A DNA stretch of 64,000 nucleotides from an uncultured Erysipelotrichaceae bacterium (GCA_902794075.1 CADBGE010000001.1:8437-72436); one strand, 5' to 3'. Positions 22,933 to 41,484 are shown, counted from the stretch's first letter. Notes: a model not told the origin generated them from the sequence alone. Numbers and translations are program-made.

Positions 22933-23056
22933 AAGTTCATGGATCATCTTAGACGGTCCTTAAAAATGGCAACTATATAATTTATTAAAATGATTATAAA
23001 AAGTTACTAGATGATGATCTAGATATAGTCTAAGATGTTCTAAGATACATAGTATA
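22933..23056. repeat. left copy of a 124-bp long-range inverted repeat
   Basis: 22962..23056 is the exact reverse complement of 41361..41455 (95/95, checked base by base). 22933..22948 also matches 41469..41484, with a 13-nt diverged patch between the two matches. Confidence 0.95.
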
Positions 23057-23057
23057 A

Positions 23058-23065
23058 TATATTTG
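23058..23065 (+). promoter_or_regulatory. Bacteroidota-type -7 promoter element candidate (TAnnTTTG)
   Basis: tatatttg lies immediately after the repeat and ends 13 nt before the terminase ATG. A TATAAT hexamer overlaps it at 23053..23058. Confidence 0.25.
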
Positions 23066-23078
23066 TAAGTGTTAAAAA

Positions 23079-23693
23079 ATGGCAAAAAATAAGTCTGACA
23101 TAAACTATGAATTTGATCCAGTAAAAAGAGAAATTCAAGGAAAAGAAGCTGAAAAAATAATTTGGACAACAAAATCATTGGAAAAAGCTGTTGAAGCTCT
23201 TAATGAAGGACTTCCGTTAAAAGCAAATCCATTTGTTGGAAAAGTTACGCAGCTTCTTAAGCCAGATTTAGTATATAGGAGAACAACAGAAGAAATAGAA
23301 GATTATATAAAATGCAAACAAGATCCTGTGTACTTCGCAGAGAAATGTTTCTTGATGACACCTGAAGGATTACAACAATGTAAGATGCGTGATTATCAGA
23401 AAGATTATTTATATCATCTTAAAGCAAACAGATTCTCAATATTATTGGCAGCGAGGCAAAGTGGAAAAACTCTTAGTCTTATGACAAATGTAACTATTAA
23501 AATTTGTAAAAATGACAATAGATTTGTCAAGATGCTAAAAAAATATTATTATTATATAAATAATAATGATTATATTATAACATTACCATTATTTGAATTG
23601 TATAATATATTATGTAATAAATCATTATTATGGAAAATAAAATATAATATTTATAAACTATTATTATGGCTGGAAAAAAAGGACAAAAAATAA
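23079..23693 (+). CDS. terL: terminase large subunit N-extein (to Walker A) fused to a short split-intein N fragment
   Basis: CKQDPVYFAEKCF...MRDYQKDYL...LAARQSGKT aligns with T4 gp17 CRDDIVYFAETYC...LRDYQRDML...LSRQLGKT. After the T codon at 23469..23471 the sequence becomes Hint block-A-like (SLMTNVTIKI...DYIITLPLFELYNIL) and then stops. Confidence 0.8.
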   Translation: MAKNKSDINYEFDPVKREIQGKEAEKIIWTTKSLEKAVEALNEGLPLKANPFVGKVTQLLKPDLVYRRTTEEIEDYIKCKQDPVYFAEKCFLMTPEGLQQCKMRDYQKDYLYHLKANRFSILLAARQSGKTLSLMTNVTIKICKNDNRFVKMLKKYYYYINNNDYIITLPLFELYNILCNKSLLWKIKYNIYKLLLWLEKKDKK

Positions 23694-24820
23694 ATGCCGA
23701 AAATTCTCACAGAAATCCACAATATTGGAAAAAATTAAATCCAACATGGAGTGATGAAGAATGTGAACAAAAGGCAAATTGGATTAAAAAATCATCAAAT
23801 TATAGATGCATAGAATATTATGAAAGATACTATCCTGAACTTTCGCATGAAGAGCACATATTATTAAGAAAACAAAAATTGAACGAACAAAAAACTAATT
23901 ATCCAAATTGTATAGACTATTATGAAAAACGATTTCCGGAATTATCTCATGAAGAACATTTAAAAATGTTAAATGAATATTCAAAGGCTGAAAATTATCA
24001 ATGTATAGAATATTATGAAAAACGATTTCCGGAATTATCTCATGAAGAACATTTAAAAATGCGTCAAGAGAAAGTAAAAACAGCATTAGAAAAAATGCCA
24101 GATATGTCTGGCCAAAATAATCCAAATAGTAAATCAAATACAACATTAGAACAACGACAAGAACGTTCACCATTTTCAAAAAAATTTTATGAAAAACGAA
24201 ATTTAACCGAAGAAGATAGACATAATTTTACAAGTAATATTAAACGAGAATATAATACGCAATTATCATATTGGTTACATAAAGGATATTCAGAAACAGA
24301 AGCAAAAGAAAAATTAATAGAACGACAAAAAACATTTACATTAGAAAAATGTATAGCAAAATATGGGGAAGAAGAGGGAACAAAAAGATATAATGATAGA
24401 CAACAAAAATGGTTAAAATCATTATATCAATCATTTCAAAATAATGGTGATGGGCGCTCAAAACAATCAAGATTTGCAAAAGAAATAATTAAAGAATGCT
24501 GTAAATATTTAAGTATTTCTATTCCAAAGAAAGAAAAGTATATATCATATAATGAAAAAGTATTTGCATATGATTTCACATATAATAAAAAAATAATAGA
24601 ATTTCAAGGAGATTATTGGCATTGCAATCCTGTCTTATTCGACGAAACTTTTTTCAATAAAGTTAAACAGGCAACAGCTAAAGAAATCTGGGAATATGAT
24701 AGAATTAAAAAACAAGCAGCAGAACATTTCGGATACAAAGTATTATATGTTTGGGAATATGATTATACTAAAGATCCTGAAAATGAAATAAAAAAATGTT
24801 TAGATTTTTTATCTAAATGA
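23666..24820 (+). CDS. free-standing homing endonuclease, Vsr-like / PD-(D/E)xK-type nuclease domain with repeated helical modules
   Basis: The C-terminus AYDF...IIEFQGDYWHCNP...KEIWEYDRIKKQAAEHFGYKVLYVWEYDY fits the Vsr/DUF559-type endonuclease pattern. The N-terminal half has three CI(E/D)YYE(K)R(F/Y)PELSHEEH modules. It overlaps IntN by 28 nt and IntC by ATGA. Confidence 0.65.
   Translation: MAGKKGQKINAENSHRNPQYWKKLNPTWSDEECEQKANWIKKSSNYRCIEYYERYYPELSHEEHILLRKQKLNEQKTNYPNCIDYYEKRFPELSHEEHLKMLNEYSKAENYQCIEYYEKRFPELSHEEHLKMRQEKVKTALEKMPDMSGQNNPNSKSNTTLEQRQERSPFSKKFYEKRNLTEEDRHNFTSNIKREYNTQLSYWLHKGYSETEAKEKLIERQKTFTLEKCIAKYGEEEGTKRYNDRQQKWLKSLYQSFQNNGDGRSKQSRFAKEIIKECCKYLSISIPKKEKYISYNEKVFAYDFTYNKKIIEFQGDYWHCNPVLFDETFFNKVKQATAKEIWEYDRIKKQAAEHFGYKVLYVWEYDYTKDPENEIKKCLDFLSK
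23909..24061 (+). repeat. two near-identical 60-nt direct repeats (93-nt period) inside the HEG
   Basis: 23909..23968 and 24002..24061 (tgtataga[c/a]tattatgaaaaacgatttccggaattatctcatgaagaacatttaaaaatg) differ at one position. A third, diverged copy starts at 23807. Confidence 0.9.
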
Positions 24821-26769
24821 AAACATATATTAAAACATTATTATATAAAATATTATCATTATTAGATTATATAAATTATCATTTTATATATAAAGAAAAA
24901 CTTATAGATAATTATAAGACTATTGAAGACATCAAAATAAAAGACAATAGTATATTTATATTATCAGATAATGGTTTTAATAAATTATCATCATTAATGA
25001 TTAGTAAGCCATTTGAAATATGGCATATAGAATTAGAAAATGGATATAAATTAGAATGCGCTGATGAACATATAGTTTTTCTTAAAGACTTTAAAGAAAT
25101 TTATGTAAATAAATTAAATATAAATGATGAAATAATAACAGATGTTGGTTTATCTAAAGTTATAAATATTTATAGTACATCTGAAAAGATATCTATGTGT
25201 GACACAACAGTTGATCATATCAATCATAGATTTTATTCAAATGGTATTTTAAGTCATAATTCCACAACTACTGCTATATACTGTCTTTGGACTATATTGT
25301 TTAATACTGACAAAACAGGACTAATATTGTCAAAGTCTGGTGCTGCAGGTCAAGACTTATTGAATAAAATAAAAGACATGTACCTATATCTTCCATATCA
25401 TCTGAAATGTGGTACAATGAAATGGAACCAAGGTGGAATATCATTTGACAACAATTCTAATATATCAACAGAAGCATTCTCTCCAACAGCTGGCTTGGGT
25501 AAGACAATTAATTTCTTAATATTAGATGAGTTTGCATGGTGTCCTCAGAACGAAGTTGAATTATTCTACAACAATATTATTCCAACTGTTACTACTATTT
25601 CAGATAGTAATGTATGTATAATGTCAACACAAAATGGATTTAATTTATTTTATAAGATATGGAAAAATTCTGTTGAAAAGAAAAGTATATATGCACCATT
25701 TAAAATAGATTGGGACCAAGTACCACAATGGAATAGTGAAAAGAAATGCTGGGAAAAAAGAACAGATGAATGGAAAAAGATGATGATAGGTGTCCTAGGT
25801 TCAGAAGAGGCATTTTATTATCAATATGGAACACAATTTTTAGCACCAGATGGATGTTTAGTATCTCGTGAATGTCTAAAAAGAATACATGATAATACTA
25901 CATTGTTTGAAAAAATAACTGAAGAGCAATGTGAAGAAATAAACTTACAGATACAATTTAAAGACGCATTATATATAAAACCAGGATATGACATAAGAAA
26001 TTTTGTTGATGGTAAACATTGGTATGTAATAACAATTGACCTTGCAGAAGGTGGTGGTGGAGACTACACTGTTTTTAATGTATTTGAATATTTAAGTAAA
26101 GATAAATTTGAACAGGTAGCATATTGGCATAGTAATGAGGTAGACATTGAACTTGCATCATTAGAATTTTGGTTATTGTCCGGACAGTTATTTAATAATG
26201 ATAGATGCATATGGAGTGTTGAATGGAATACTTATGGAGCATTGTTTTATAATTTATTGAGAAATTATAATGAACCTGATTTTAGTCCAGAAACAGCATG
26301 GAGAAATAATATAGTAAACGAAGGTATAGACTTATTTTATTTTGCGAGATATCCTCGTCAAGCAATAGATGATGATGGAATGGGTACTAAAAAGATTCAA
26401 GGAATACGTTTTAGTAATGCAAATAAATCTATGGCTTGTTCATTGTTAAGACTTATGTTTGAAAAGGGTGACATCATTATAACTGATTTGGTTACTGCTG
26501 GTGAGCTTGAGAACTTTGAAGATAAGAATGGAAACGGTAGTTATAAAGCATCTTATGGACATGATGACATAATAATGACATGTTGTCAATTGCCATTACT
26601 TAAACAAACAGCAAGATATAAAGATTATGTAGAAGAATTTGAAGCATTTAAGATAGGCGGAAAATTTAATGAAACAAATAATAGTGACAATGTGAATACT
26701 TTATATAATTTTAATATTTCAAGAGAGGAAGAACTGTTTACACCTCCTGAAGGAATGCAACAAATGTAA
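24817..26769 (+). CDS. terL: split-intein C fragment fused to terminase large subunit C-extein (ATPase Walker B plus nuclease)
   Basis: Residues 1-148 carry Hint blocks B (GYKLECADEHIVFL), F (ISMCDTTVDHINHRFYS) and G (NGILSHN). From Ser149 (25261) the sequence is STTTAIYCLW...INFLILDEFAW...TQNGFNLFYKIW...SYGHDDIIM, collinear with T4 gp17 TVVAIFLAHF...AMIYIDECAF...TPNGLNHFYDIW...GYHDDLVM. Confidence 0.85.
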   Translation: MKTYIKTLLYKILSLLDYINYHFIYKEKLIDNYKTIEDIKIKDNSIFILSDNGFNKLSSLMISKPFEIWHIELENGYKLECADEHIVFLKDFKEIYVNKLNINDEIITDVGLSKVINIYSTSEKISMCDTTVDHINHRFYSNGILSHNSTTTAIYCLWTILFNTDKTGLILSKSGAAGQDLLNKIKDMYLYLPYHLKCGTMKWNQGGISFDNNSNISTEAFSPTAGLGKTINFLILDEFAWCPQNEVELFYNNIIPTVTTISDSNVCIMSTQNGFNLFYKIWKNSVEKKSIYAPFKIDWDQVPQWNSEKKCWEKRTDEWKKMMIGVLGSEEAFYYQYGTQFLAPDGCLVSRECLKRIHDNTTLFEKITEEQCEEINLQIQFKDALYIKPGYDIRNFVDGKHWYVITIDLAEGGGGDYTVFNVFEYLSKDKFEQVAYWHSNEVDIELASLEFWLLSGQLFNNDRCIWSVEWNTYGALFYNLLRNYNEPDFSPETAWRNNIVNEGIDLFYFARYPRQAIDDDGMGTKKIQGIRFSNANKSMACSLLRLMFEKGDIIITDLVTAGELENFEDKNGNGSYKASYGHDDIIMTCCQLPLLKQTARYKDYVEEFEAFKIGGKFNETNNSDNVNTLYNFNISREEELFTPPEGMQQM

Positions 26770-26785
26770 ACAATATTTTTATTTA

Positions 26786-26793
26786 TATAAATA
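26786..26793 (+). promoter_or_regulatory. T4-late-promoter-like box TATAAATA
   Basis: Exact TATAAATA ending 16 nt upstream of the ATG at 26810. Confidence 0.3.
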
Positions 26794-26809
26794 ATACTTA
26801 ATATAGAAT

Positions 26810-28372
26810 ATGATTAACTTAAGTACATACTTGATAATGGAGGCTAACCAAAAACGTCCAAGCGGCCTCGGAAAAATAAAAGATAAGTCAGTTGAGCAAG
26901 ATGTTGAAATGATTGCAGGTGATGTTTATGATTTGTCAGACAGTAACCGATATACTGAAACGATGAAGTATTACAAAGGTGAAGGTAACGGATATATCAC
27001 TGACAAAGAAGGCCATGTATATGATGTGTTCACAAGCACTGAACAGGGTGATGCAGGACGAATTGCTGGAGGCTCAACATATAGATATGTAACGATAAAA
27101 AATGTCCATGGAGTTGACATTAATTTTAGAGGTTATTCTGCAGTATTTTCATCATCGTATGGCATGGACATAATTGATGACATCAAAGCAGGTATGTATC
27201 TTGAAGATTATCTTGCAAAGCATTGGAATGATATTTCAAATAGTGATGTACAAAAGAATAAGGAAATAGTGAAACTTAAAGAAATGGGTAATGCTGAGGC
27301 AAAGACATATAATAAACAGAAAGAAGAATCAGCAGCAGATAAAAGACTTAGATTCTGGGAAAGATACATTATTATAAGAAACATTAAAATTACAGTAAAG
27401 AATGGAGATATTGATATTGACACAAAGGATGCTGATGACCATTATAAAAGACAGTTAGGTAAAGAAAAATATAAAAAAGAAGGCGGATGGAATGAAGAGG
27501 AACTTTATAAAGAATATATATCTGCATTAAAGGATGCTCTTAAACCTGCTATATCAAAAATATTCGGTGATACATTTGGTTGTTCAATATCGGATATGAA
27601 TGGTCTTGTATTTAATATTGTTGCAAAGTCAAACAGTAACTTGCCTATGATACGATTAGGATTTGATACAAAGAAAAAAGAATTTGTTGAGTTGGCATAC
27701 GAAAAAGCAAAGCTACGAGGCAAGAACGAATGGGTTGGAACAACAATTGAACCGGCGATTGGTCCAACAGTAACACTTGTAAAGAAAGATGCTAATGAAC
27801 ATATGATTGAAATATTCACCAATGCGTCCAAGGAATGGATGAAACTTAACAAAGGAAAGCAGAAAGAATGGGTTGATGCAAACTGGGAATCAATATGGAA
27901 GAATGGAAATTCAACTCATTGGTTATATGGCAAAAGTACAATGTCAAAAGGTGAAGCAAAAAAGAAAGCTGCAGATAATTATAAGAAAGATCTTGCAGCT
28001 CATAAATGGGATACATCTGGAGATACAATAACATTCCTTACTGAGTTCATTTCACAATTTATGACTGAACCTGAAAAGATTGAGAAAGTCACGGGCGAGG
28101 AAGTTGAGAACTCACCAATTGAGAAGCCTCGTCGTGGAGAAAAAACAAAGATGGGTAAGGGTGCACGTGCTGCTCAGGAAAAGAAAATGGATGCTTGGCA
28201 CAATGGTGAAAGAAAACAGAATGTATCGAACTGCTCTGATGCAAAGCTTAAGATGAACTATGAAATTTGCAAGGAGAAAGGATATGAAAAAGAAGCCGCT
28301 CAACTTAAAGCCGAAGCAATAAAGCGCGGTATAGTGCTTGAGAGTATTATGAACTATATAGAATTATATTAA
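26810..28372 (+). CDS. hypothetical Lys/Glu-rich protein (possible large internal/virion protein)
   Basis: 520-aa ORF after terL. The N-terminus MINLSTYLIME is weakly CTS-like with an I-x-E site. No enzymatic motif accepted. Confidence 0.3.
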   Translation: MINLSTYLIMEANQKRPSGLGKIKDKSVEQDVEMIAGDVYDLSDSNRYTETMKYYKGEGNGYITDKEGHVYDVFTSTEQGDAGRIAGGSTYRYVTIKNVHGVDINFRGYSAVFSSSYGMDIIDDIKAGMYLEDYLAKHWNDISNSDVQKNKEIVKLKEMGNAEAKTYNKQKEESAADKRLRFWERYIIIRNIKITVKNGDIDIDTKDADDHYKRQLGKEKYKKEGGWNEEELYKEYISALKDALKPAISKIFGDTFGCSISDMNGLVFNIVAKSNSNLPMIRLGFDTKKKEFVELAYEKAKLRGKNEWVGTTIEPAIGPTVTLVKKDANEHMIEIFTNASKEWMKLNKGKQKEWVDANWESIWKNGNSTHWLYGKSTMSKGEAKKKAADNYKKDLAAHKWDTSGDTITFLTEFISQFMTEPEKIEKVTGEEVENSPIEKPRRGEKTKMGKGARAAQEKKMDAWHNGERKQNVSNCSDAKLKMNYEICKEKGYEKEAAQLKAEAIKRGIVLESIMNYIELY

Positions 28373-28380
28373 ATATTAAA

Positions 28381-28674
28381 ATGACATCACTTGAACAATA
28401 TATATCAGAATCATTAACAAAGACCCAACGCATGATAGTTGGGTCTATTGTTATTGATATGTTAAAAAATTCAAAATTGACTTCTGAACAACTTAATGTT
28501 ATGTTCAATAATATAGATCTTAAAATAATTTCAGATATAGAAAATTATATATTGTCAACAGACAAAGAAAATGCTATGCCATATATGGCCGATAAAGATG
28601 ATTTTCTTATACAAACAAATTCTGAAAAAATTATTAATAATCTATGCAAATATTTTGTTACTTATATAGTGTGA
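28381..28674 (+). CDS. candidate capsid-targeted small protein
   Basis: N-terminus MTSLEQYISESL resembles the T4 CTS MKTYQEFIAE, with an I-S-E site. Confidence 0.3.
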   Translation: MTSLEQYISESLTKTQRMIVGSIVIDMLKNSKLTSEQLNVMFNNIDLKIISDIENYILSTDKENAMPYMADKDDFLIQTNSEKIINNLCKYFVTYIV

Positions 28675-28682
28675 ATTTATAG

Positions 28683-29069: not shown

Positions 29070-29093
29070 AGTTCTTAAAATATTTTTAATGCT

Positions 29094-30212: not shown

Positions 30213-30304
30213 TTCTTGTTCTGATTATTGATATTAATTTTTTTAGATGCTGCAGCTAAACCCCACGTATCATATTTGTCATCCAAAACTTCATTACCGA
30301 ACAT
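30209..30304 (-). CDS. micro-ORF (31 aa), translationally coupled
   Basis: MFGNEVLDDKYDTWGLAAASKKININNQNKK. Its TGA overlaps the downstream ATG (ATGA), and it fills an otherwise unexplained 104-nt gap in a tight operon. Below the track cutoff. Confidence 0.3.
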   Translation of the reverse strand: MFGNEVLDDKYDTWGLAAASKKININNQNKK

Positions 30305-30316
30305 CGTAGATTCCAT

Positions 30317-31012: not shown

Positions 31013-31018
31013 ATTATA

Positions 31019-32038
31019 TTATTTATTATTTATTTTTTCATTTATCATATCACCAATCAGTTTCATATCAGGATGCGGTTTTCCTGTAGTTCCAATGCTT
31101 CGTAAGTCAATGAAATGCTGCCAGTCATCTTCATATGCAGTGTGAACCAATTCGGTATGTAGGTCCAATGGAAGTACGCGCCTAGCTTGTTGTGGTGTCC
31201 AGCCCATTTTAAGCAAATTCATATATGAAAATTCTGATGCCATATTTCCAAACAGCCAAGCCGTTACAACGCTCCAAAGATCATTCTTATCATTAATGAT
31301 TTCTTGGCATAATCCTTTAAATATGTTATCTCCGTAAGATATTTCAAGAGACGAAAGTTCCATATTAACGTCGTCTTCATTAATGTCTGCATTAAGTGCT
31401 ATTGAAATTTCATTTCCGAACTTATCTTTACTATAATTACAATATCTTGTTGACTGTTCTGCTGGACTGTCTGCTCTATGTCTGTTTGCTTCTGCTGAAA
31501 CACCTCTGTCAGTGAACATTTTTATAGTGATTCTTTTATCATGATGATCTCCAGGTTCACACATAAATGACAACACATATTCTTTATCTAATCCAAGTTC
31601 CCAACCATGAAGTTTTTCACGACGCATTGGTCCAAGTTCATCCCAATTAATTTGTTCAATAAACACACGATAATTAGTAGTTATAGCATAATGGTCAACA
31701 CTAATTGTGGTTTTATCATCAATATTATGTTCCTTTTTATATTTATTGACTCGTGAATATGGGTTCTTTTTAAATATCTGTATAATATTAGATTTCCACA
31801 TGTACTCTCTATCATCACCAAGATTTCCGAGAGGTATATCTAAATATAAAGTTCCATGTTCAAGCATTGATGTATGTTTAGACGCAATCATACGATTGAC
31901 AAACTTCTTTGCTGAATCATCCGTTATATTTGCTTCTGACTTATAACATGTACGACCAGCAATTTCAATTTGTTTAAGTATACCTTCGAAACCCGGTTGT
32001 TGTTTAATAATTTCTATATCAGGATTAATAAATTTCAT
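31019..32038 (-). CDS. thyX: flavin-dependent thymidylate synthase ThyX
   Basis: Contains the ThyX signature RHRxxSxxxxSxR (ANRHRADSPAEQSTRY) plus an N-terminal HTSMLEH region. At 339 aa it is longer than typical ThyX. Confidence 0.8.
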   Translation of the reverse strand: MKFINPDIEIIKQQPGFEGILKQIEIAGRTCYKSEANITDDSAKKFVNRMIASKHTSMLEHGTLYLDIPLGNLGDDREYMWKSNIIQIFKKNPYSRVNKYKKEHNIDDKTTISVDHYAITTNYRVFIEQINWDELGPMRREKLHGWELGLDKEYVLSFMCEPGDHHDKRITIKMFTDRGVSAEANRHRADSPAEQSTRYCNYSKDKFGNEISIALNADINEDDVNMELSSLEISYGDNIFKGLCQEIINDKNDLWSVVTAWLFGNMASEFSYMNLLKMGWTPQQARRVLPLDLHTELVHTAYEDDWQHFIDLRSIGTTGKPHPDMKLIGDMINEKINNK

Positions 32039-32136: not shown

Positions 32137-32147
32137 AATTTTTAACT

Positions 32148-32420: not shown

Positions 32421-32552
32421 TTTTTTTCTTCATAACATAAAAAATAAACATTGTTTATATTAATATATAAATGAATGAAAGAAATATTTAATACATTTTA
32501 ATATCATTTTTTGATTTTTAATTATATAAATTTTTTATTGGAAATTTAAGAT

Positions 32553-35500: not shown

Positions 35501-36482
35501 GATTAATACAGTCATTGATGAAAATGATTTAGATGAGAATGGAAACATAAAAAATTATTTTGATAGTATTATAGAACATCATAAAGAAGATCCAGAGCAT
35601 TTCAATAAATTTTATGAACGAATTAATACTCCTTTAATAGATTCCGACAATACAATGAAAATTATTGAAAAGGATAATGAAACATATGCATACTATTATA
35701 TTACATTGAATTTATACAACAACATATATTCATTTAACATAAATACAACAAACAACATAGATACATTTGATTTATCATCATTTAAATTAGAAGATATATT
35801 ACCATACATAAAAGACAATGTTTTGAACTATATAGCAAATGTCATTGGAGAAAAGATATTGATGAAAAAGAATGATATAAATATAATGATAGACAAAACA
35901 TTTGATTTTGCAAACAATAATGTAACGAACAATTATCTTCCATTAAAGACACATATAAGTAGATATTATAATGACATCACACCAATATTGAACAAATCAG
36001 CTTCTGTAAAAGCATATAGTTTATTATATAATAAAAAGAATAATATAGCGCATAAAAATGATTTTTTAGGTAATGTTGTATACTATCATAATGATGTTCC
36101 TATTGAATATGATGACACCTATTTGTCATATTGCGGCATACCATGTGTTGATTATGATGGAAGTGTACAATATACAAATGAATATGAAAGAAAGTTTTAT
36201 AACAATAATGAATTTTATCTTCTTGAACCATTATTTGAAATAACAGACAACACATTATATACATTAGAAAATATAAGAAAAATAGAAGAACATGATTATC
36301 TGTTCAATAATATTTTCATTCCACATATGAAAAAATTCAAAGGAATGGAATCTCTGAATAATGACGAATATTTATTTTTATTTAACAGGTATAAGGTTGA
36401 TTATACATCATATCCTGTGAAACTTAATATAATTGAAACAGATAAAATGCACAAGCTAAAATTTACATTCGCTCTTGTGTAA
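32553..36482 (+). CDS. giant Asn/Tyr/Ile/Lys-rich protein (virion structural candidate)
   Basis: 1309-aa uninterrupted ORF; TATAAATT box upstream; no motif recognised. Confidence 0.35.
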   Translation: MFKPLLRTIPTLTGNFTLACKLDTYRKNSVLNYECGVTEAVLMPLQNNLANKHVNVSLLYDSYEYDVQRYYKSFSSMFYTDNYDYDKNNIYDINLSSNKTYENRNKDYEFGCKRNIMNSGYQYMFYAPFYITDTKSLPDEFILHIEFKKNIYKNIHIKIFDNNDSDKISNYLSVYLKRYVEKIDERCIFCLPESHQATYFGIDVQTGGFKYCKDNVFGVLYDEQLSINDFDKVINDGFNRNKIIMRQIVPLSFMFNISDILTRNEYNTYINEKIKISGWYERNGMKYDFYDFDTDYKTLMLNDVNVLNPDQSNISENNNLKQSLHEGIDEQLKYDNTISITHNKWCLLPTLNNTEKYITNSSNIFLDSYGNYYKTPIMYQSNSSYLYYDNEKHDVDLLNSFNAVKNNNIENIVTQTKFSEDDILYETNWHDVYNNKCIIGGFLYDINDLSYTETLDSNGIVRSKYQKIDKFNIFAYVNILNSNDNIKYCKYSLIEDQPLEINATAYNDLENPMFMKDIVQYNYRYGNYHESNTLFNGSYMTFDDLAKIAYNDTAHSYDSINKDIYIDYSYYYYVSNMYAKINSLNDLAKISTDINHLDIKLWDGFEIYNDIDTESFVTAVTYLDKNRNEKLSDICYIAINQSNNVKSISDIPENDIVNTRNSRIAFYNTFADCHELVKNIYLSDKNKNENEEYIHSQSYILYHNLLNDDYLSYINNYYHHIPKYEDSAFISRGHMERNDVKINYVYCDNWILDEYINYINENVNEKHKIKNIEKTIEDAYIGFINYDQYKTYRKRMYGKNINNNIYVLNVYVIINSTADKKIITEFRTIKKYEKLSNEKLKNEELIKTLISEHRLYHFGQACKISKSFYNKILKIFKENTKLIGSSTNLSFILYTTNEDIMDKIKIKNDGIIFNGYDAYDKKYTLDNLKDTTEPILIPLTTHVLWSLESIKETYDILTSNNIRTDEDETYITHNIYDLISCNKINTVIDENDLDENGNIKNYFDSIIEHHKEDPEHFNKFYERINTPLIDSDNTMKIIEKDNETYAYYYITLNLYNNIYSFNINTTNNIDTFDLSSFKLEDILPYIKDNVLNYIANVIGEKILMKKNDINIMIDKTFDFANNNVTNNYLPLKTHISRYYNDITPILNKSASVKAYSLLYNKKNNIAHKNDFLGNVVYYHNDVPIEYDDTYLSYCGIPCVDYDGSVQYTNEYERKFYNNNEFYLLEPLFEITDNTLYTLENIRKIEEHDYLFNNIFIPHMKKFKGMESLNNDEYLFLFNRYKVDYTSYPVKLNIIETDKMHKLKFTFALV

Positions 36483-36511
36483 AATCATAATATATAAAAT
36501 AACTAAGAATT

Positions 36512-39500
36512 ATGCCAATTAACAACATTAACACGCTACAGAATTACGAAGATCTAAAATATACTGTAGAACTTGCTAAACAAGACCAAAACAATAATCT
36601 TGATACTGATTATTACATTCATGCTCTTGCGAATCTAGAACAAAGAAATGAATATAGATATTCCAATGGCATTAAGTATGGCATATTGACATATGATAGA
36701 GACATAACGGTTGGTATTAATGATGTAAATAGTAATGATCATTTGGTAAATGATGAAATAGCAGCAACGACAACTCTTCTTGAGTTAAACAATGATATGT
36801 CATTTGATATAATTGTAAACAATATTGAAACATATCTTAAGCATTCACAGATATACAATGACGGCAGTTCAATTAAATCATTATTGTTTGGCAAAATTCT
36901 TGGTTCTGATGATTCTGAAAACGCAAGTAATGTTGAGATTCAATATACAGATATAGATTTAAATGAACATATTTTAAAGGAGGCATATAGAGCATTTCAT
37001 TTGGACGATCCAACAAATGACAACATATATATATTAATTCATCTAAAATTAAATGAAACTACACTTAATGAGCATATATACAAATTAATGGTATATAAAT
37101 TAAGTATTCCTATAAATAGTGAAAATTTCAAAAATGTATTTAAAGCTACAACATATGCTCAAAATTCTATATCTGATGTATTTGGAGAAAAATTAACTGT
37201 AGGCAGTACACAATTATTTGATGAACTAATAAGTTCTTGCGGAGTATATACTGTTGAGACAATAGAAAACAACTATACTCTTGAATGCACGTATGATACT
37301 ATTGAAGAACATTTACTTAAGATAAGTGACAAATCATTAATGTCAGATAGTTATAATAAAATAAATGAACTTTTATACTTTAACTATTATAATATAAGTC
37401 AATATGTCAATGCATTAAACAATGATTTAACTATGACATATCCAAACATTCTTAAGTATTATTCAGTAAAACAGTTCAATTCTAATAACAACACACTTAA
37501 GGAAATGATTGCAAAGACATTATATAACGAAATATATAATAGTCTTACTGAAATACAAAAAAGAAGTGCTACATTATTCATTCCTAAAAATACAGTAATA
37601 ACTTATGTAAGTAATGTAGAAAATTCTTTGCAGATATATTATACAGATGATATTTATATATATTTCACAAATAATTCTGATGTAAACATAGAAACAAACA
37701 AAAATGTAGAAGGAATAAAATTTTATTATAGTGGAATAGACAAAACTATCATATATAACATATACACAAAATATAACACAAAATATACTGAACTTGTAGA
37801 CTGTTTTAAAGTAAACAAAAAATATGTTCTCCCATATATTGATGATTCGCATCTTTGGAACATCAACGATAATCAGACAACGATTTATGCAAGTGGAGAA
37901 TCAGCTGGAAATCCAAACATATTCATTATAAGAACTTATCTTGATGATAAGAACAATATAAAACAAGCTCAACTAAATAGAACTGACATTCAACAAAATT
38001 TATTGACATATGCTTATAAACGTCAGAACATAAGATACTATAATAGTGGAACTGAAGCAACAAAAGATTATACATACATATTTGCTGTGCCAATTATAAA
38101 TAGTAAGAGCATAGATAAATTAAAATATGCTACACTATTTGTAATGTCAAACGTTGTAGTGTCAGGTAAAGATAAAAATAATAATGTTATATATAAACCT
38201 GGTCCATCAGTCACAACTATATGGGCAATAAATGACAACACTACAAGTAACCAATCAGAATTTATAATTGTTACTAATGATGGAACAGAAAGAGGAACTC
38301 CGATAACATTTGAGGATATGTTCGGAATTGATGAACTAATATATCGTAGATTTGTTGAATATGGACATAATGCAAATGTGTTTGATGATATGATAGCAAT
38401 AAAGTTGCCTAAAAATATCATCAATGGTTCTGAGCCTAAGCCTAATTATAATTATTTCTCAATAGAGAGAAACCCAATACTTAAGATAGACGGAATATCG
38501 GAAACTGATGAAAGTTCATATAACTATAATCTTGTTGAAATGAAAATAAATGATACACTTAATTATCATGATTTTTCATATGCAACAGATACATATTATA
38601 CTGGAAACAGAAAATTGATGAATATATGGGCAGATAACGGAAAAAAGGTTTCACAACCATATACAGTAGAGTATAAAAATAATGTAGCATCAGAAACTCA
38701 TATATTAAGAGCAGGAGCACTTAGTAGTGAAAGCACTTCAGCCGGAATTACTGAACAGACAGTAATTTCATCTAATGATGATCATTCTATTAAAACAGAT
38801 GAAAATAGCACCTCAGTTGTTCTTAATAAAATTGATGTCAATGAATATCTACCACAATCATATGTTCCAATATTAAAGGAATCAAATATTTTCCATCAGG
38901 ACAATAATATAATAAATAGAACAAACATATATTCATTCAATGATCAAGGTAAAATATATTATGCATATATTGGAACATCTTGTGAAAGCGGAAATAAAAA
39001 CGTATTGCATATAGGAACATCAGATTTTGCACACATGGTCAATCTTGGTAAAGAATCTCTTGTAACTGACGATGATTCCAATAATATATTCAACAAAACT
39101 GATGGGTTGTCAATAGATTTCACATATACATACATAAATTCTAAAGTTACAAACATTGAATATCTAAAGACAAAATATAACATATCGAAAAATGAATATA
39201 TCAGTTCCGGTGAACATGTAAAAGTTATAACATTGCCATTATATTATATACATAATGAATATAATGAAGGAGGTAATCAAAAAAATATAATAGTAAATGT
39301 AATAACTGAAAATATAACTGATAATCCTATAGTTGAAATAACACATAATAATGTAACTTTACAAAGTAATAGGAATGATAATTGTCGTTTTATAAAAATA
39401 AGTCTTTCAAGTGGTAATAAAGATTTCGGTAAATATATTACTAATACATATCCAGAACTTAAAGGTATGATTGGTAATTTATCAGAAGTACAAACAGTCA

Positions 39501-39622
39501 ACAATGACGAATGGATAAATGCATCAGGCTATTATGATAATGAACTTAAAACACTTTTCTTTGATTCTCCATTATTAGTAAACATCGTTATTAAAGGCAC
39601 ATCAACAAGTATTTACTTGTAA
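36512..39622 (+). CDS. giant Asn/Tyr/Ile-rich protein (virion structural candidate)
   Basis: 1036-aa uninterrupted ORF directly downstream of the 1309-aa ORF; no motif recognised. Confidence 0.35.
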   Translation: MPINNINTLQNYEDLKYTVELAKQDQNNNLDTDYYIHALANLEQRNEYRYSNGIKYGILTYDRDITVGINDVNSNDHLVNDEIAATTTLLELNNDMSFDIIVNNIETYLKHSQIYNDGSSIKSLLFGKILGSDDSENASNVEIQYTDIDLNEHILKEAYRAFHLDDPTNDNIYILIHLKLNETTLNEHIYKLMVYKLSIPINSENFKNVFKATTYAQNSISDVFGEKLTVGSTQLFDELISSCGVYTVETIENNYTLECTYDTIEEHLLKISDKSLMSDSYNKINELLYFNYYNISQYVNALNNDLTMTYPNILKYYSVKQFNSNNNTLKEMIAKTLYNEIYNSLTEIQKRSATLFIPKNTVITYVSNVENSLQIYYTDDIYIYFTNNSDVNIETNKNVEGIKFYYSGIDKTIIYNIYTKYNTKYTELVDCFKVNKKYVLPYIDDSHLWNINDNQTTIYASGESAGNPNIFIIRTYLDDKNNIKQAQLNRTDIQQNLLTYAYKRQNIRYYNSGTEATKDYTYIFAVPIINSKSIDKLKYATLFVMSNVVVSGKDKNNNVIYKPGPSVTTIWAINDNTTSNQSEFIIVTNDGTERGTPITFEDMFGIDELIYRRFVEYGHNANVFDDMIAIKLPKNIINGSEPKPNYNYFSIERNPILKIDGISETDESSYNYNLVEMKINDTLNYHDFSYATDTYYTGNRKLMNIWADNGKKVSQPYTVEYKNNVASETHILRAGALSSESTSAGITEQTVISSNDDHSIKTDENSTSVVLNKIDVNEYLPQSYVPILKESNIFHQDNNIINRTNIYSFNDQGKIYYAYIGTSCESGNKNVLHIGTSDFAHMVNLGKESLVTDDDSNNIFNKTDGLSIDFTYTYINSKVTNIEYLKTKYNISKNEYISSGEHVKVITLPLYYIHNEYNEGGNQKNIIVNVITENITDNPIVEITHNNVTLQSNRNDNCRFIKISLSSGNKDFGKYITNTYPELKGMIGNLSEVQTVNNDEWINASGYYDNELKTLFFDSPLLVNIVIKGTSTSIYL

Positions 39623-39659
39623 TAGATATACATATACAATAATACATATACTTTTTAAT

Positions 39660-40184
39660 ATGACAAAAATTTTTATAATTGGCCATAGAAATATTGATAC
39701 TTTGAACATAGGACTACGGATTCAGTCAAAGGATGATTCAATAACCGTCTCTCCAAGATTCACAACAAATAGTGATGAGGTCACAGAATATAAATATTTT
39801 TTAGATAAGGAGACTGTTAACATAAGTTATAAGAATAATGCCATCATAACTATAACAACAGATGACAATGAGTCTAATGGAATAGTTTATGATGATTATT
39901 ATAATAACGATATTTTCTGCATGAATCTAAATGAGTTCAATATAATTCCAGATAAATTGTTTGAGGAAACTCCAGAAAAGGACATACTTGTCGTTTGGGT
40001 AGATTCTTCAACAAATGTTCCGAAGTCTGACATAAATGAAGTGAACTATCTTGAAGATAGAATATCTAATTTAAATTATATGTATTTTTGTAATGAGGAT
40101 CCTGACACAATATCTGATATAGTAATAAAATATTTTTATTCTGACCAATTTGAAAGAGAAGAAATTCTAAAAGATCTTTTGTAA
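39660..40184 (+). CDS. hypothetical protein
   Basis: 174-aa ORF followed by a strong hairpin. Only a loose resemblance to the guanylate-kinase fold, with a degenerate P-loop (see rejected list). Confidence 0.3.
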   Translation: MTKIFIIGHRNIDTLNIGLRIQSKDDSITVSPRFTTNSDEVTEYKYFLDKETVNISYKNNAIITITTDDNESNGIVYDDYYNNDIFCMNLNEFNIIPDKLFEETPEKDILVVWVDSSTNVPKSDINEVNYLEDRISNLNYMYFCNEDPDTISDIVIKYFYSDQFEREEILKDLL

Positions 40185-40200
40185 AAAAGATCTTTTTATT
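40169..40200 (+). terminator. rho-independent terminator candidate
   Basis: aaaagatctttt (40169..40180) pairs with the second copy at 40185..40196: 12-bp stem, loop gtaa, then T-rich sequence. Confidence 0.5.
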
Positions 40201-40317
40201 ATTTTTATTATACATTTTTTACATATTTTTGAATTTTGTATCAGTTCATAATTATTTTATATTATAAAACATATAGTAAGACATAAAAATGTCAAAAATT
40301 AAACTTTATTAAACAAT

Positions 40318-40938
40318 ATGACTGAGGATTTTAATATAACTGGTACATGGGTAAATCGTTTAACCGGCGATAAGATTGTTGTTAGGAACACAATTATTGA
40401 TGGCGATGATATGATAATAATCTGCGCGGATGGACGACAATTAAAAATGTCTGAATTTCAAAATTATATACAAATGTCTGATGAAAAATCAAATGGAATT
40501 GATGATACATTATCATTAGGAGACATTCGAGGAATTGAAAATGAACGAAGAGTCGTAGTTGGTAATTATAATGCACATACTAATGATCGTTATGTTATTA
40601 ATAATGATCGTACAATGATGAATAATATAATAAATGATTATGATCCACCAAAGTCTAACAAAGAATTCGTTGAAGATGCTATTAATAGAAAAGGAAGTGA
40701 AAAAATGAATGAAAGTGAAAAAATGTTGAGTAAGTTATTTGAAAAGATAGATTTGGACGTTGATTTGAAAATTAATTTGAACTGTAGTAATTTCCCAGTT
40801 AAGGAGTTAAACATGTTACAGACAATATATGATGTAACAGTAGATGATATAAGTAATTATATAATAAAGAATATTTTAAATTTTGACGTATTTAAATCAG
40901 CAATCACGGAATATGTCAATGAACAGCTTACAAATTAA
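40318..40938 (+). CDS. hypothetical protein
   Basis: 206-aa ORF; no motif recognised. Confidence 0.3.
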   Translation: MTEDFNITGTWVNRLTGDKIVVRNTIIDGDDMIIICADGRQLKMSEFQNYIQMSDEKSNGIDDTLSLGDIRGIENERRVVVGNYNAHTNDRYVINNDRTMMNNIINDYDPPKSNKEFVEDAINRKGSEKMNESEKMLSKLFEKIDLDVDLKINLNCSNFPVKELNMLQTIYDVTVDDISNYIIKNILNFDVFKSAITEYVNEQLTN

Positions 40939-40956
40939 TAGAGTGGTATATGCTAT

Positions 40957-41205
40957 ATGAAAGATAATGATATTGTCCAATATTTGGACAGAATCGTAAA
41001 CAATGATAAATATGTTGAAGAATGCCAGAAATTCATACTAGATAAATTTAATGTAAAAAGTGAGTATGACAAAGAAACAGGCACTATTTATATATGGACA
41101 CCAAATGTATATGAAAGTCTAAATGTTGGATATGCATCAGATTATTTAAGAAATACATTTTCTCCAGAAATGCTTAACATTGTTTATGGTTTGAAAAAGA
41201 ACTAA
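40957..41205 (+). CDS. hypothetical protein
   Basis: 82-aa ORF, last of the plus-strand block, followed by hairpins. Confidence 0.3.
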   Translation: MKDNDIVQYLDRIVNNDKYVEECQKFILDKFNVKSEYDKETGTIYIWTPNVYESLNVGYASDYLRNTFSPEMLNIVYGLKKN

Positions 41206-41292
41206 AAATATGTGGCCGTTTTTCACAAAGCAGCCACATAACAAAATAAACTTTAAGATTATGACTAAAGAATGGGTACCCATTTAAAAATA

Positions 41293-41323
41293 AAAATTCT
41301 GAACCTTTATGATTCAGAATTTT
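41293..41323. terminator. bidirectional rho-independent terminator
   Basis: aaaattctgaa (41293..41303) pairs with ttcagaatttt (41313..41323). The A-run and T-run flanks allow function on both strands in a convergent gap. Confidence 0.55.
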
Positions 41324-41360
41324 TTGTGTATATTATGTTATATATTAAAAAATGTTAAAA

Positions 41361-41484
41361 TATACTATGTATCTTAGAACATCTTAGACTATATCTAGAT
41401 CATCATCTAGTAACTTTTTATAATCATTTTAATAAATTATATAGTTGCCATTTTTGAAGATAATAGATGATGATCCATGAACTT
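41361..41484. repeat. right copy of the 124-bp long-range inverted repeat
   Basis: Reverse complement of 22933..23056 (95-bp perfect core, a 16-bp second match, and a 13-nt diverged patch). Confidence 0.95.

What the first reader, a model, noticed from the sequence alone, without database searches (positions are those of the whole stretch)
22933..41484. 124-bp inverted repeats (95 bp perfect) bracket an 18.3-kb segment containing terL, nucleotide-metabolism genes and two giant ORFs
22962..23056 is the exact reverse complement of 41361..41455, verified base by base. A further 16 bp also match (22933..22948 vs 41469..41484), separated from the core by a 13-nt diverged patch. Intergenic DNA in this window is otherwise non-repetitive at this length, so this is not a chance match. 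Both copies sit immediately 3' of a gene in the same relative orientation (ORF 21322..22914 on plus, rnh on minus). The left copy also abuts the terL start with TATAAT and TAnnTTTG-like boxes at its edge; the right copy is followed by a terminator. The core contains a hairpin (ctagat-gatg-atctag) and a tandem tctaagat. Possibilities: a substrate for homologous recombination giving two genome isomers (T4-type recombination works on repeats of this size); a mobile regulatory cassette like the PeSL elements proposed to shuffle modules in T4-type genomes (Arbiol et al. 2010); or a repeated sRNA/regulatory unit. No invertase gene is visible in the window.
Basis: seen in the sequence. Interest (0 to 1): 0.65.

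Follow-up and report, generated by a model that had tools for sequence, protein, structure and literature searches.

The report
Dispersed intergenic repeat in huge phage
The two inverted 124-bp repeats are real, but they are two of about 5-8 copies of a conserved non-coding intergenic module in a ~400-kb rumen phage, most likely a transcript-level regulatory element, with no evidence that they flip the 18-kb segment.

Summary
In detail: 22933-23061 is the reverse complement of 41356-41484 (129 nt, 92%), with a perfect 95-nt core, and none is expected by chance.

It is not a unique pair. K-mer depth and distinct flanks in public runs show about 5-8 copies in the ~400-kb genome. No third copy lies in the window or within ~8.5 kb either side.

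Related phages carry homologous elements at the same two sites: upstream of terL, and downstream of an RNase H/FEN-like gene. Copies are 93% alike within this genome, 48-64% in two relatives, and 52-67% between genomes. This points to old sites and recent lineage-specific homogenisation.

Every assembly that spans a junction, and every relative, keeps the same orientation of the 18-kb segment. No invertase was seen in ~84 kb.

Each copy starts 0-18 nt after a stop codon and is co-oriented with transcription. It has a TATAAT/TTTATYAAA box and a small hairpin. In most copies a 5' arm is complementary to a downstream box.

My best reading is a cis-acting intergenic punctuation or regulatory cassette. 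It works like a PeSL but is not a member of that family. The exact function is unresolved.

Two side findings: terL is split by a split intein plus an endonuclease gene, and an abundant structured ~340-nt ncRNA lies at 42701-43039.

The parts
22933..23061 (+). Left copy of the intergenic module. It lies between the stop of ORF 21322-22914 and the start of the terL 5' fragment at 23079.
   Evidence: nhmmer family model E=1.4e-26
41356..41484 (-). Right copy of the module. It lies in the 3' region of the RNase H/FEN-like gene (41489-42568, minus strand), upstream of a terminator.
   Evidence: nhmmer E=3.5e-27
22933..22961 (+). 5' arm of the left copy: a conserved AAGTTCATGGATCATC followed by a 13-nt variable patch. 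ATCATCTTAGAC is complementary to GTCTAAGATG at 23028-23037.
   Evidence: MFE and centroid fold, z=-3.5; duplex p=0.009 against shuffles
41456..41484 (-). 5' arm of the right copy. GGATCATCATCTA is complementary to TAGATGATGATC of the core, which is a different register from the left copy.
   Evidence: duplex p=0.001
22974..22989 (+). Conserved box TATATAATTTATTAAA, with the -10-like TATAAT at 22976-22981. The mirror copy is at 41428-41443 (minus strand). This is the most conserved part across all relatives.
   Evidence: Alignment A1 invariant columns. A hexamer of the form TAnnnT is kept in the window's two copies and in 7 of the 8 copies from relatives. The scanner found no sigma-70 -35 box on this strand.
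23007..23022 (+). Small hairpin CTAGAT-GATG-ATCTAG; mirror at 41395-41410 (minus strand). The three variants seen in other copies or strains (23007 C>T, 23009 A>G, 23021 A>G) each turn a Watson-Crick pair into G.U on this strand.
23029..23046 (+). Tandem TCTAAGAT boxes ('box 2'), the pairing partner of the left 5' arm. They resemble the TAAGAT(T)ATG start context found at 12 of 65 genes in the window.
41292..41324 (-). Strong intrinsic terminator (14-bp stem plus T run) about 35 nt after the right copy. It is probably bidirectional, closing the convergent units.
   Evidence: conserved in L019-L025
23058..23065 (+). TATATTTG (TAnnTTTG-type box) abutting the left copy, 14 nt before the terL ATG. 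It lies outside the repeat core and is absent at the right copy.
   Evidence: ATATTTGTAA recurs in other intergenic cassettes of this genome.

Best explanation
The two arms are two members of a dispersed family of about 5-8 copies of a ~125-nt non-coding intergenic module. The family is specific to a narrow clade of ~400-kb AT-rich phages from rumen and gut, whose host is probably Prevotellaceae (inferred).

Each copy begins 0-18 nt after the stop codon of a gene and points in that gene's direction of transcription. The pair is inverted only because one copy sits in a plus-strand unit (upstream of terL) and the other in a minus-strand unit (after the RNase H/FEN-like gene).

Both sites are ancestral. 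The near-identity in this genome (95 nt perfect) comes from recent copy-to-copy homogenisation, that is gene conversion by the phage's recombination system. It does not come from a recent duplication or a designed inversion switch.

Mechanistically I read it as a cis-acting transcript-level punctuation or regulatory cassette. Read-through RNA from the upstream gene folds the 5' arm onto one of two downstream boxes (TAGAnGA or CTAAGA). This encloses an AU-rich conserved box that carries a -10-like TATAAT, which may act as an internal promoter for the downstream unit (terL on the left, a short terminated RNA on the right). The arrangement is functionally analogous to T4-type PeSL terminator/promoter cassettes and to T4 promoter-inside-hairpin arrangements.

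Shown here: multi-copy status, conserved sites, co-orientation, sequence constraint, 5'/3' complementarity in most copies, and a single genome orientation in all assemblies.

Inferred, not shown: gene conversion, RNA folding in vivo, promoter activity, and any effect on expression.
For: Copy number. In run X2 the unitigs 22962-22998, 22969-23004 and 23008-23056 have word depth 328.6, 391.7 and 255, against 46-51 for the flanks. Run X1 gives the same ratios (224-272 against 35). At least 7 distinct flanks lie on contigs at phage depth: 5381/12291, 1233, 2626, 10595, 17297, 30276 and 2754 nt. Related strains in other hosts also hold the core at about 4-7x phage depth (X9: 95.6 against 13.5).

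Conserved sites. L022 has a copy upstream of terL that is inverted relative to two tandem 151-nt copies downstream of rnh. L024 has homologues at both sites. L017, L019-21 and L025 have one at the rnh site.

Concerted evolution. Within-genome identity is 93% in the window, 61-64% in L022 (55-nt core 91%) and 48% in L024. Between genomes it is 52-67%.

Constraint. In strains whose adjacent terL coding DNA differs by 4.4-6.2%, mostly at third codon positions, the core differs by 0-2 nt per 48-80 nt.

Orientation and stop-codon adjacency hold in every context examined.

5'/3' complementarity. Significant in winL (p=0.009), winR (0.001), L025 (0.001) and L017 (0.004), with Fisher combined p=4e-5 over 7 copies. 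Folds of these copies have z-scores from -2.1 to -3.5. L024-terL has a 9-bp UCAUAGAAU/AUUCUAUGA stem. A metatranscriptome-derived relative has 13 perfect bp, TCTAGATCCTCTT/AAGAGGATCTAGA, with different sequence, which is covariation.

That 152-nt RNA-run contig spans the 5' arm, the box and the 3' box.

The hairpin variants are all G.U-compatible on the sense strand.
Against: RNAalifold on the sequence alignment finds no common structure. The arm-box pairing uses different registers in different copies. It is not significant in the L022-rnh copies or in L024-rnh.

No -35 element or other recognisable promoter partner accompanies the TATAAT in the window copies. The box motif is not enriched elsewhere in the window (36 matches against 24.8 +/- 5.7 expected).

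There is no Rfam family.

The RNA evidence is a single low-depth Logan contig (6.3x) that could be DNA carry-over, and no transcript ends were mapped.

The right copy has no downstream gene, so a promoter there would only make a short RNA.

The other 3-6 copies could not be read, so their gene contexts are known only from 30-nt flanks.
Confidence: 0.5

Rival explanations
1. Inversion substrate. Homologous (T4-type) recombination between the two 95-nt identical arms flips the 18.3-kb segment, so the phage population holds two genome isomers, perhaps with regulatory meaning.
For: 95 nt of perfect identity in inverted orientation. The phage has T4-like replication and packaging genes (terL, RNase H/FEN). 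An inverted isomer would stay coherent, because each junction would still read gene, element, then terL or terminator (read directly). Many short-k assemblies break inside the repeat (L002, L006-L010, L013, L014).
Against: Every contig that spans a junction shows the window orientation: at least 8 long contigs plus L003-L005, L012 and L015. Relatives at 43-69% identity in the giant ORF keep the same orientation. In L024 the two elements are only 48% alike, yet the layout is the same, so the layout does not depend on recombinable identity. Contig breaks are explained by 5-8 copies of a repeat longer than k. No invertase was found.
Confidence: 0.08
2. Non-autonomous mobile element, of MITE/Correia, REP or IS200-PATE type. 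It would be spread by a transposase or by recombination, and the arms would be terminal inverted repeats or ssDNA hairpins.
For: It is a discrete ~125-nt module with sharp ends and complementary terminal segments. There are 5-8 near-identical copies. L022 has a tandem duplication of the whole unit. It is absent upstream of terL in a 61%-identical TerL relative (L027). It is confined to a narrow clade.
Against: No target-site duplication is visible at any copy. Both window sites are occupied in all close relatives, so no recent insertion is seen. Strict co-orientation with transcription and stop-codon adjacency are not expected for DNA transposition. No transposase was found in ~84 kb. The element was not found in Prevotella or other genomes near ThyX loci, in GTDB with a family pattern, or in IMG/VR.
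Confidence: 0.15
3. DNA-level protein-binding site cluster, for example a replication origin of the T4 oriF/oriG type (promoter plus AT-rich unwinding element) or an operator/iteron array for a phage regulator.
For: The short motif TAGAnGA (or its complement) recurs on both sides of the AT-rich box, in direct or inverted orientation depending on the copy. Background is 0.5 per kb per strand. A goat-gut relative has three direct GACGCTAGA repeats around the box. There are several copies per genome in both orientations.
Against: G.U-compatible variation and wobble-containing helices argue for RNA on one strand. Constant orientation relative to transcription is not required of origins. The composition profile shows no skew change at either copy. 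T4 origins are not sequence repeats of each other (general knowledge).
Confidence: 0.1
4. A family of small-RNA genes. TATAAT would be the promoter, and the ~75-nt core (plus ~60 nt to the terminator at the right copy) would be a trans-acting sRNA of about 130 nt.
For: The -10-like hexamer is kept as TAnnnT in all but one copy examined, including a TACAAT/TATAAT change between L019 and L020. The homogenised tract begins just upstream of the box and runs downstream. The right copy and its orthologues are followed by a strong terminator. The boxes resemble the TAAGAT start context of 12 of 65 genes.
Against: The left copy has no terminator before terL. The only RNA contig seen includes the 5' arm upstream of the putative start, and it is of low depth. 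Its downstream sequence is poorly conserved between species.
Confidence: 0.12

Closest known systems
PeSL / PmSL cassettes of T4-type phages (Arbiol et al. 2010, PMC2839356; Comeau et al. 2014, PMC4122927)
   Same: Both are short, multi-copy, non-coding intergenic modules in a large virulent myovirus-like genome. Both combine a stem-forming segment with a promoter-like box just downstream. Copies are well conserved within a genome and are a potential substrate for recombination between copies.
   Different: PeSLs have a sigma-70-like -35/N17/-10 promoter followed directly by a Shine-Dalgarno sequence and a start codon. They sit in hyperplastic regions between small accessory ORFs and mark indels. 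Here there is no -35. A ~75-nt conserved segment follows the box. One copy has no downstream gene. The sites flank core genes (terL, RNase H) and are positionally conserved. The window also holds a second cassette class that is more PeSL-like: a hairpin plus T run plus TTTTATTTTATATTTGTAAT.
T7/T3 RNase III processing sites (R sites) and other intercistronic mRNA hairpins (general knowledge)
   Same: Repeated, related stem-loop elements placed between cistrons, co-oriented with transcription, and several per genome. The hairpin sits at the 3' end of the upstream message.
   Different: T7 sites are ~50-60-nt two-stem structures with a defined internal loop. Here the stem is 8-13 bp, its register varies between copies, and it encloses a ~60-nt AU-rich conserved loop. 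Cleavage is untested.
T4 promoter-within-hairpin arrangements (genes e, soc, 49, I-TevI; general knowledge)
   Same: A promoter-like box is enclosed between two complementary segments. Long read-through transcripts can fold, while transcripts started inside would lack the 5' arm.
   Different: In T4 the 3' arm sequesters the ribosome-binding site of the downstream gene. Here the 3' box lies 30-50 nt upstream of the terL start, and the right copy has no gene. The T4 cases are not repeats of one another.
Bacterial intergenic repeat families (REP/BIME, ERIC, Neisseria Correia elements, RUP/BOX; general knowledge)
   Same: Roughly 100-150-nt non-coding modules with complementary ends. They are often transcribed within 3' UTRs, sometimes carry promoters, are multi-copy and are homogenised.
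   Different: Those are chromosomal, with tens to hundreds of copies, often with target-site duplications (Correia: TA) or a cognate RAYT or transposase. None of this is seen here, and the host replicon is a phage.
Site-specific invertible segments (Mu G, P1 C, Hin/Gin/Cin/Pin systems; general knowledge)
   Same: Inverted repeats bracket a multi-kb segment of a phage genome.
   Different: Those use 26-34-bp crossover sites and an adjacent serine invertase, and they switch tail-fibre genes. Here the repeats are 95-129 nt and belong to a dispersed family. No invertase was found, the segment carries terL and nucleotide-metabolism genes, and only one orientation is seen.

Membership tests
PeSL (promoter-early stem-loop) cassette | Sigma-70-like promoter with -35 and -10 hexamers about 17 nt apart | tested here: not met
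   TATAAT is present (22976-81), but the consensus scan finds no promoter on the element's sense strand in either window copy. Only the L022 rnh copies have TTGTCA-N16-TATAAT (read).
PeSL (promoter-early stem-loop) cassette | Stem-loop (terminator) immediately upstream of the promoter | tested here: inconclusive
   Local hairpins occur in some 5' arms: L017 GTTCAT..ATGAAC followed by TTATTTTT, copy 4 TTCATTA..TAATGAA, and winL GGATC..GGTCC. None occurs in winR or L022. In most copies the arm instead pairs across the box.
PeSL (promoter-early stem-loop) cassette | Shine-Dalgarno sequence and start codon of a downstream gene at the 3' extremity | tested here: not met
   In the left copy the ATG is 22 nt beyond the repeat. 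The right copy is followed by a terminator and no co-oriented gene.
PeSL (promoter-early stem-loop) cassette | Clustered in hyperplastic regions and associated with indels between close relatives | tested here: not met
   Both sites flank core genes and are conserved in L022 and L024. There are 2 copies in ~81 kb examined.
Site-specific invertible segment (Gin/Hin type) | Adjacent serine invertase gene | tested here: not met
   No Resolvase or integrase Pfam hit among the genes of L001, L011, L046 and L047 (about 84 kb) or in direct scans. The rest of the genome was not examined.
Site-specific invertible segment (Gin/Hin type) | Both orientations present in the population | tested here: not met
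   Only one orientation appears in all spanning assemblies and in all relatives. Minor isomers cannot be tested, because only k=31 unitigs were available.
Homologous-recombination genome isomerisation (large inverted repeats) | Repeats are the only or dominant recombining pair, and isomers are detectable | tested here: not met
   The repeat has about 5-8 copies.
MITE / Correia-like non-autonomous transposon | Terminal inverted repeats | tested here: inconclusive
   Complementary end segments of 8-13 nt occur in 6 copies or relatives, but in variable register.
MITE / Correia-like non-autonomous transposon | Target-site duplication and empty sites in close relatives | tested here: not met
   No direct repeats flank any copy. 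Both sites are filled in all close relatives. The only empty site is in a distant relative (L027).
RNase III-type intercistronic processing site | Co-oriented intercistronic position with a conserved dsRNA stem | tested here: inconclusive
   Position and orientation are met in all copies. The stem is significant in 4 of 9 copies, with Fisher p=4e-5. No consensus structure was found in the alignment.
RNase III-type intercistronic processing site | Endonucleolytic cleavage in the stem | not testable with these tools
   No read-level RNA data were available.
Rfam RNA families | Match to any curated covariance model | tested here: not met
   No hit at gathering score in the window. No hit at E<=5 on 22850-23150. 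Only chance-level hits in 41150-43250.

The most novel reading that the evidence does not exclude
The module is a previously undescribed class of structured cis-regulatory RNA, specific to a clade of ~400-kb gut and rumen phages that probably infect Prevotella. Its variable 5' arm can pair with either of two downstream boxes that mimic the phage's TAAGAT translation-start context. An internal promoter sits in the enclosed loop. Together these would give a temporal or read-through switch for terL and other units. The copies would be kept matched to a common trans factor by gene conversion.
Probability: 0.2. Interest if true: 0.6.

Novelty: new variant of a known kind. Interest (0 to 1): 0.4.

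Why it matters
Huge phages from gut and rumen are known almost only from protein annotation, and their non-coding regulatory grammar is essentially undescribed. This element gives a concrete, conserved, multi-copy cis-module in one such clade, sitting directly in front of the packaging gene terL.

It is also a clean example of lineage-specific concerted evolution of dispersed repeats in a phage genome: 93% identity within this genome against 48% in a relative.

It has a practical side. Repeats like this break short-k assemblies of huge phages at predictable places.

If the arm-and-box switch were real, it would give an experimentally tractable entry into gene regulation in uncultivated megaphages. 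If not, it remains an ordinary intergenic repeat family and can be annotated as such.

Tried and rejected
- BLASTN of the element against 50,697 GenBank phages found no match.
- Exact and degenerate family patterns found nothing real in IMG/VR, JGI metagenomes or GTDB genomes. A looser pattern gave 14 IMG/VR hits, all chance matches in coding DNA.
- Rfam found nothing. tRNA/tmRNA search found none.
- Searches for further or degenerate copies in the window and in about 17 kb of extensions, using blastn-short and an nhmmer family model, found none.
- RNAalifold on the 10-copy alignment gave no consensus structure.
- I rejected a conserved mini-ORF in the box (ATG GCA ACT ATA TAA). Its length and even its start codon vary or vanish between copies.
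- An antisense promoter (TTGCCA-N18-GATGAT) is not conserved in relatives.
- I tested whether the neighbouring abundant ncRNA base-pairs with the element. The z-scores were about 0.
- DGR, CRISPR-like and att-site readings were rejected on anatomy: non-coding copies, no A-specific differences, no repeat-spacer layout, and no reverse transcriptase or integrase nearby.
- Two look-ups of window-edge proteins failed because of start-codon choice.
- The ThyX-centred scans returned only distant relatives and Prevotella chromosomes, none carrying the element.
Full report
**1. Observation**

The repeat exists as described. The repeat finder gives arms 22933-23061 and 41356-41484: 129 nt, 92% complementary, 18,294 nt apart. 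It is the longest repeat of any kind in the window. The 95-nt core 22962-23056 occurs exactly twice, once on each strand, with 0.00 matches expected in shuffles.

Reading both strands confirms the details:
- the 16-nt outer match AAGTTCATGGATCATC;
- the 13-nt divergent patch, TTAGACGGTCCTT on the left and ATCTATTATCTTC on the right;
- the hairpin CTAGAT-GATG-ATCTAG at 23007-23022;
- the tandem TCTAAGAT at 23029-36 and 23039-46;
- the position of both copies just 3' of a stop codon and in the same sense as that gene.

The left copy is followed by TATATTTG and the ATG at 23079. The right copy is followed about 35 nt later by a strong intrinsic terminator at 41324-41292 on the minus strand.

**2. 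Where the window comes from**

The RNase H/FEN-like protein (41489-42568, minus strand; weak Pfam 5_3_exonuc_N) is encoded on a 400,026-bp ENA metagenome contig. It is also on about seven other 0.2-1 Mb contigs from other samples. Runs holding the sequence are bovine, sheep and goat gut metagenomes.

GC content is 22-35%. The nearest GenBank TerL is from an uncultured 462-kb phage, at 32% identity. The window is therefore part of an uncultivated ~400-kb huge phage.

**3. It is a dispersed family, not a pair**

I laid Logan unitigs of two deep runs on the junctions. The repeat core has word depth 224-272 in X1 and 255-392 in X2, while the flanks sit at 35-41 and 46-51. That corresponds to about 5-8 copies per genome.

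At 80% likeness, at least seven different contigs at phage depth end in, or contain, a copy. Their flanks differ from the two in the window. Examples of upstream flanks are ...GCGTTAAAGA|ATAAGTTCATATATCATCTTAGACAGCCTC, AATGTTCATTAAATGACTTCTAATGAATTA| and ...GCTAAAAATCATTCTA|GATCATCATC. Three copies share the downstream flank CTTTAAAATATTTTAAAACATAACAAAATA.

Related strains in sheep and other gut samples show the same excess, for example 95.6 against 13.5 in X9.

There is no third copy in the window, nor in about 8.5 kb beyond each end (L046, L047). This was checked by blastn-short and by an nhmmer model built from ten copies. The many assemblies that stop inside the repeat (L002, L006-L010, L013, L014) are what a 95-nt multi-copy repeat does to k=31-87 graphs.

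**4. No sign of inversion**

Every contig that runs through a junction has the window arrangement. On the right these are L001 plus 6 similar contigs, and L003, L004 and L005. On the left they are L011 plus 6 similar contigs, and L012 and L015.

Three relatives, whose giant ORF is 69%, 43% and 48% identical to that of the window, have the same order and orientation: terL (+), ThyX (-), two giant ORFs (+), rnh (-) (L022, L024, L025).

The precomputed Pfam tables for about 84 kb, plus my own scans, show no resolvase or integrase.

An inverted isomer would be structurally coherent: the 530-aa gene, then the element, then the terminator; and rnh, then the element, then terL. Rare recombinants therefore cannot be excluded, and read-level data were not available. 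Nothing suggests that inversion is what the repeats are for.

**5. Both sites are old; the identity is recent**

In L022 a copy lies directly upstream of an intact terL (1068-1122). It is inverted relative to two tandem 151-nt copies downstream of rnh (19072-19373). L024 has recognisable homologues at both sites. L017, L019-21 and L025 have one after rnh. All ten align over their whole length, and all are recovered by the family HMM at E of 1e-16 to 1e-27.

| Comparison | Identity over the module |
|---|---|
| Window, left vs right copy | 93% |
| L022, the two tandem copies | 88% |
| L022, terL copy vs rnh copies | 61-64% (55-nt core 91%) |
| L024, the two sites | 48% |
| Orthologous copies between genomes | 52-67% |

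The two sites therefore carried diverged paralogues in the common ancestor. The window lineage, and partly the L022 lineage, homogenised them. This is the signature of gene conversion among dispersed copies (inference).

A phage whose TerL is 61% identical has only 22 nt upstream of terL and no element (L027). More distant relatives and Prevotella chromosomes lack it too. The family is confined to a narrow clade.

**6. Constraint**

In strains X9 and X14 the adjacent terL coding DNA differs from the window at 12-17 of 273 positions, mostly spaced by three. The high-depth core unitigs differ at 0-2 of 48-80 positions. A non-coding stretch that is more conserved than neighbouring synonymous sites is under selection, is being homogenised, or both.

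**7. Anatomy common to all copies**

- (a) A 5' arm starts 0-18 nt after a stop codon. It begins (G)TTCAT(A/G)GA(A)T and contains nTCTAATG, CATCTTAGAC or CATCATCTA.
- (b) AAAAATG(G/T) follows.
- (c) Next is the most conserved box, TA(T)A(T)AATTTATYAAA. Its hexamer is TAnnnT in the window's two copies and in seven of the eight copies from relatives, including a TACAAT/TATAAT swap between strains L019 and L020.
- (d) About 12 nt follow, then box 1, TAGAnGA, which in the window lies inside the CTAGAT/ATCTAG hairpin.
- (e) Box 2 is CTAAGA(G/T)AT.
- (f) The module ends around ATAGT(A/G)TA.

In the window copies no -35 partner is detected on the sense strand. The L022 rnh copies do have TTGTCA-N16-TATAAT. 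The box motif is not enriched elsewhere in the window, so it is not this phage's general promoter.

**8. 5' arm and box complementarity**

The MFE folds pair the left arm (AUCAUCUUAGAC) with box 2 (GUCUAAGAUG), and the right arm (GGAUCAUCAUCUA) with box 1 (UAGAUGAUGAUC). The 13-nt patch that distinguishes the two copies therefore retargets the arm to a different box.

The same topology appears elsewhere with other sequences:
- L025: UUCAUAGA....CAUCUAAUG with CAUUAGAUG....UCUAUGAA;
- L017: GUCCUCUA with UAGAGGAC, and GAAUCGUC..AUGAAC with GUUCAUGACGAUU;
- L024-terL: UCAUAGAAU with AUUCUAUGA;
- a relative seen in a sheep metatranscriptome: UCUAGAUCCUCUU with AAGAGGAUCUAGA, 13 perfect pairs.

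Against shuffled arms the pairing is significant in winL, winR, L025 and L017 (p from 0.001 to 0.009). The Fisher combination over seven non-redundant copies gives p=4e-5.

The pairing is not significant in the L022-rnh and L024-rnh copies. Because the register differs, RNAalifold sees no common structure.

The three variants seen in the small hairpin (23007 C>T, 23009 A>G, 23021 A>G) all give G.U on the sense strand. That is suggestive of RNA, though the chance of this outcome is 1 in 8.

The short motifs also occur as direct repeats in some copies (X10), which keeps a protein-binding reading alive.

**9. Transcription data**

Two sheep-gut metatranscriptome runs hold a 152-nt contig, at depth 6.3 and 2.4, that contains the 5' arm, the box and the 3' box of a related copy. 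The module, including its 5' arm, is therefore present in RNA-derived libraries. This fits read-through from the upstream gene. DNA carry-over cannot be excluded, and no ends can be read from unitigs.

**10. Interpretation**

The pair is two members of a clade-specific, transcription-oriented intergenic module. The inverted geometry is incidental to the opposite orientation of the two host units.

The best-supported function is cis-acting at transcript level. An arm-and-box helix would form in read-through RNA, acting in punctuation, processing or stability. It would enclose a conserved AU-rich box that may double as a -35-less promoter for terL on the left, or for a short terminated RNA on the right.

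This works like T4-type PeSLs and like T4 promoter-in-hairpin arrangements. It fails the PeSL membership tests on four counts: -35, SD/ATG, hyperplastic-region location, and association with indels (for the definition). I put about 0.5 on this reading. I put more than 0.85 on the narrower statement that it is a dispersed conserved cis-element and not an inversion switch.

The rivals are a MITE/REP-like mobile element, a DNA-level origin or operator cluster, an sRNA gene family, and isomerisation. Each is weighed in the rival-explanations section of this report.

**11. Side findings**

*(a) terL is fractured.* ORF 23079-23693 carries TerL residues 1-133 up to the P-loop RQSGK. ORF 24817-26769 carries an intein C-terminal ...GILSHN|S followed by TerL residues 129-631. 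Between them, in a third frame, is a 384-aa endonuclease-like ORF. This matches the 'fractured gene' layout of a split intein plus a free-standing homing endonuclease (PMC2677866). L022 and L024 have an intact terL.

*(b) An abundant structured ncRNA.* The 579-nt gap upstream of rnh holds a ~340-nt RNA at 42701-43039 on the minus strand. It is the only strongly covered stretch in the metatranscriptomes: depth 59-78, against 0-19 for its neighbours. It is highly conserved in all close relatives. Its consensus fold has 74 pairs, of which 17 covary, including a 16-bp closing stem. It matches nothing in Rfam or GenBank phages.

*(c) A second cassette class.* A more abundant intergenic cassette (hairpin, T run, TTTTATTTTATATTTGTAAT) is the better PeSL analogue in this genome.

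*(d) Host hint.* The nearest cellular relatives of ThyX are from Prevotella and Segatella, and TAnnTTTG-like boxes are present. Both hint at a Prevotellaceae host.

Noticed in passing
window 23079-26769: terL is split into three ORFs in three reading frames. The N-terminal 133 aa of TerL plus about 70 aa are at 23079-23693. A 384-aa endonuclease-like ORF is at 23666-24820 (weak REase_MTES_1575, phrog_22677). The intein C-terminal part (...GILSHN|S) plus TerL residues 129-631 are at 24817-26769. This looks like a split intein with a free-standing homing endonuclease inserted at the Walker-A P-loop, the 'fractured gene' layout. Relatives L022 and L024 have an intact terL.
   Followed up: partly
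window 42701-43039 (minus strand), within the 579-nt gap 42569-43147: A ~340-nt conserved, highly structured non-coding RNA. The consensus fold has 74 pairs, 17 with compensatory changes. In two sheep-gut metatranscriptomes it is the only strongly covered stretch of 40.3-43.3 kb (depth 59-78). There is no Rfam, tRNA/tmRNA or GenBank-phage match. It is possibly a new phage ncRNA class.
   Followed up: partly
window 42609-42740 (minus strand): Three tandem terminator-like hairpins (AAAGTTCTG...CAGAACTTTT, about 43-nt period) lie between the ncRNA and the rnh promoter region. Logan unitigs break here.
   Followed up: no
window 13448-13487, 47971-48039, 61405-61499, 62620-62728; L047 1648-1757, 2052-2159, 9892-10000: A second, more frequent intergenic cassette: a GTTCC...GGAAC hairpin, then ATTTTTATTTTATATTTGTAAT(T). 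This is a terminator-plus-promoter layout much closer to classical PeSLs than the element under study. It contains the TAnnTTTG-type box TATATTTG.
   Followed up: partly
window 23797-24078; L013 697-1758: Three tandem repeats of 93-102 nt lie inside the endonuclease-like ORF. One assembly (L013) encodes 353 aa instead of 384 aa, which is copy-number variation of one 31-aa unit.
   Followed up: partly
window, gene starts (e.g. 8435, 14914, 32553, 44092, 56482, 62279): 12 of 65 genes have (T)AAGAT(T) immediately before the ATG, against 3.3% background. The tandem TCTAAGAT boxes of the repeat resemble this start context.
   Followed up: partly
window 31019-32038 (ThyX): The closest cellular homologues of the phage ThyX in GTDB genomes are from Prevotella, Segatella and Hallella, at 41-44% identity. 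Together with the TAnnTTTG-like boxes, this suggests a Prevotellaceae host.
   Followed up: partly
window 41261-41287 (+): A mini-ORF, MTKEWVPI*, sits behind a perfect CTTTAAGATT start context. It is the truncated counterpart of a 44-aa ORF (MTKDW...) called in L024 (18772-18906). It lies between the 82-aa gene and the bidirectional terminator.
   Followed up: no
window 40318-40938: A 206-aa ORF has a weak Pfam Intein_splicing hit (E=0.005, below the family cut-off). It may be another Hint-domain remnant.
   Followed up: no
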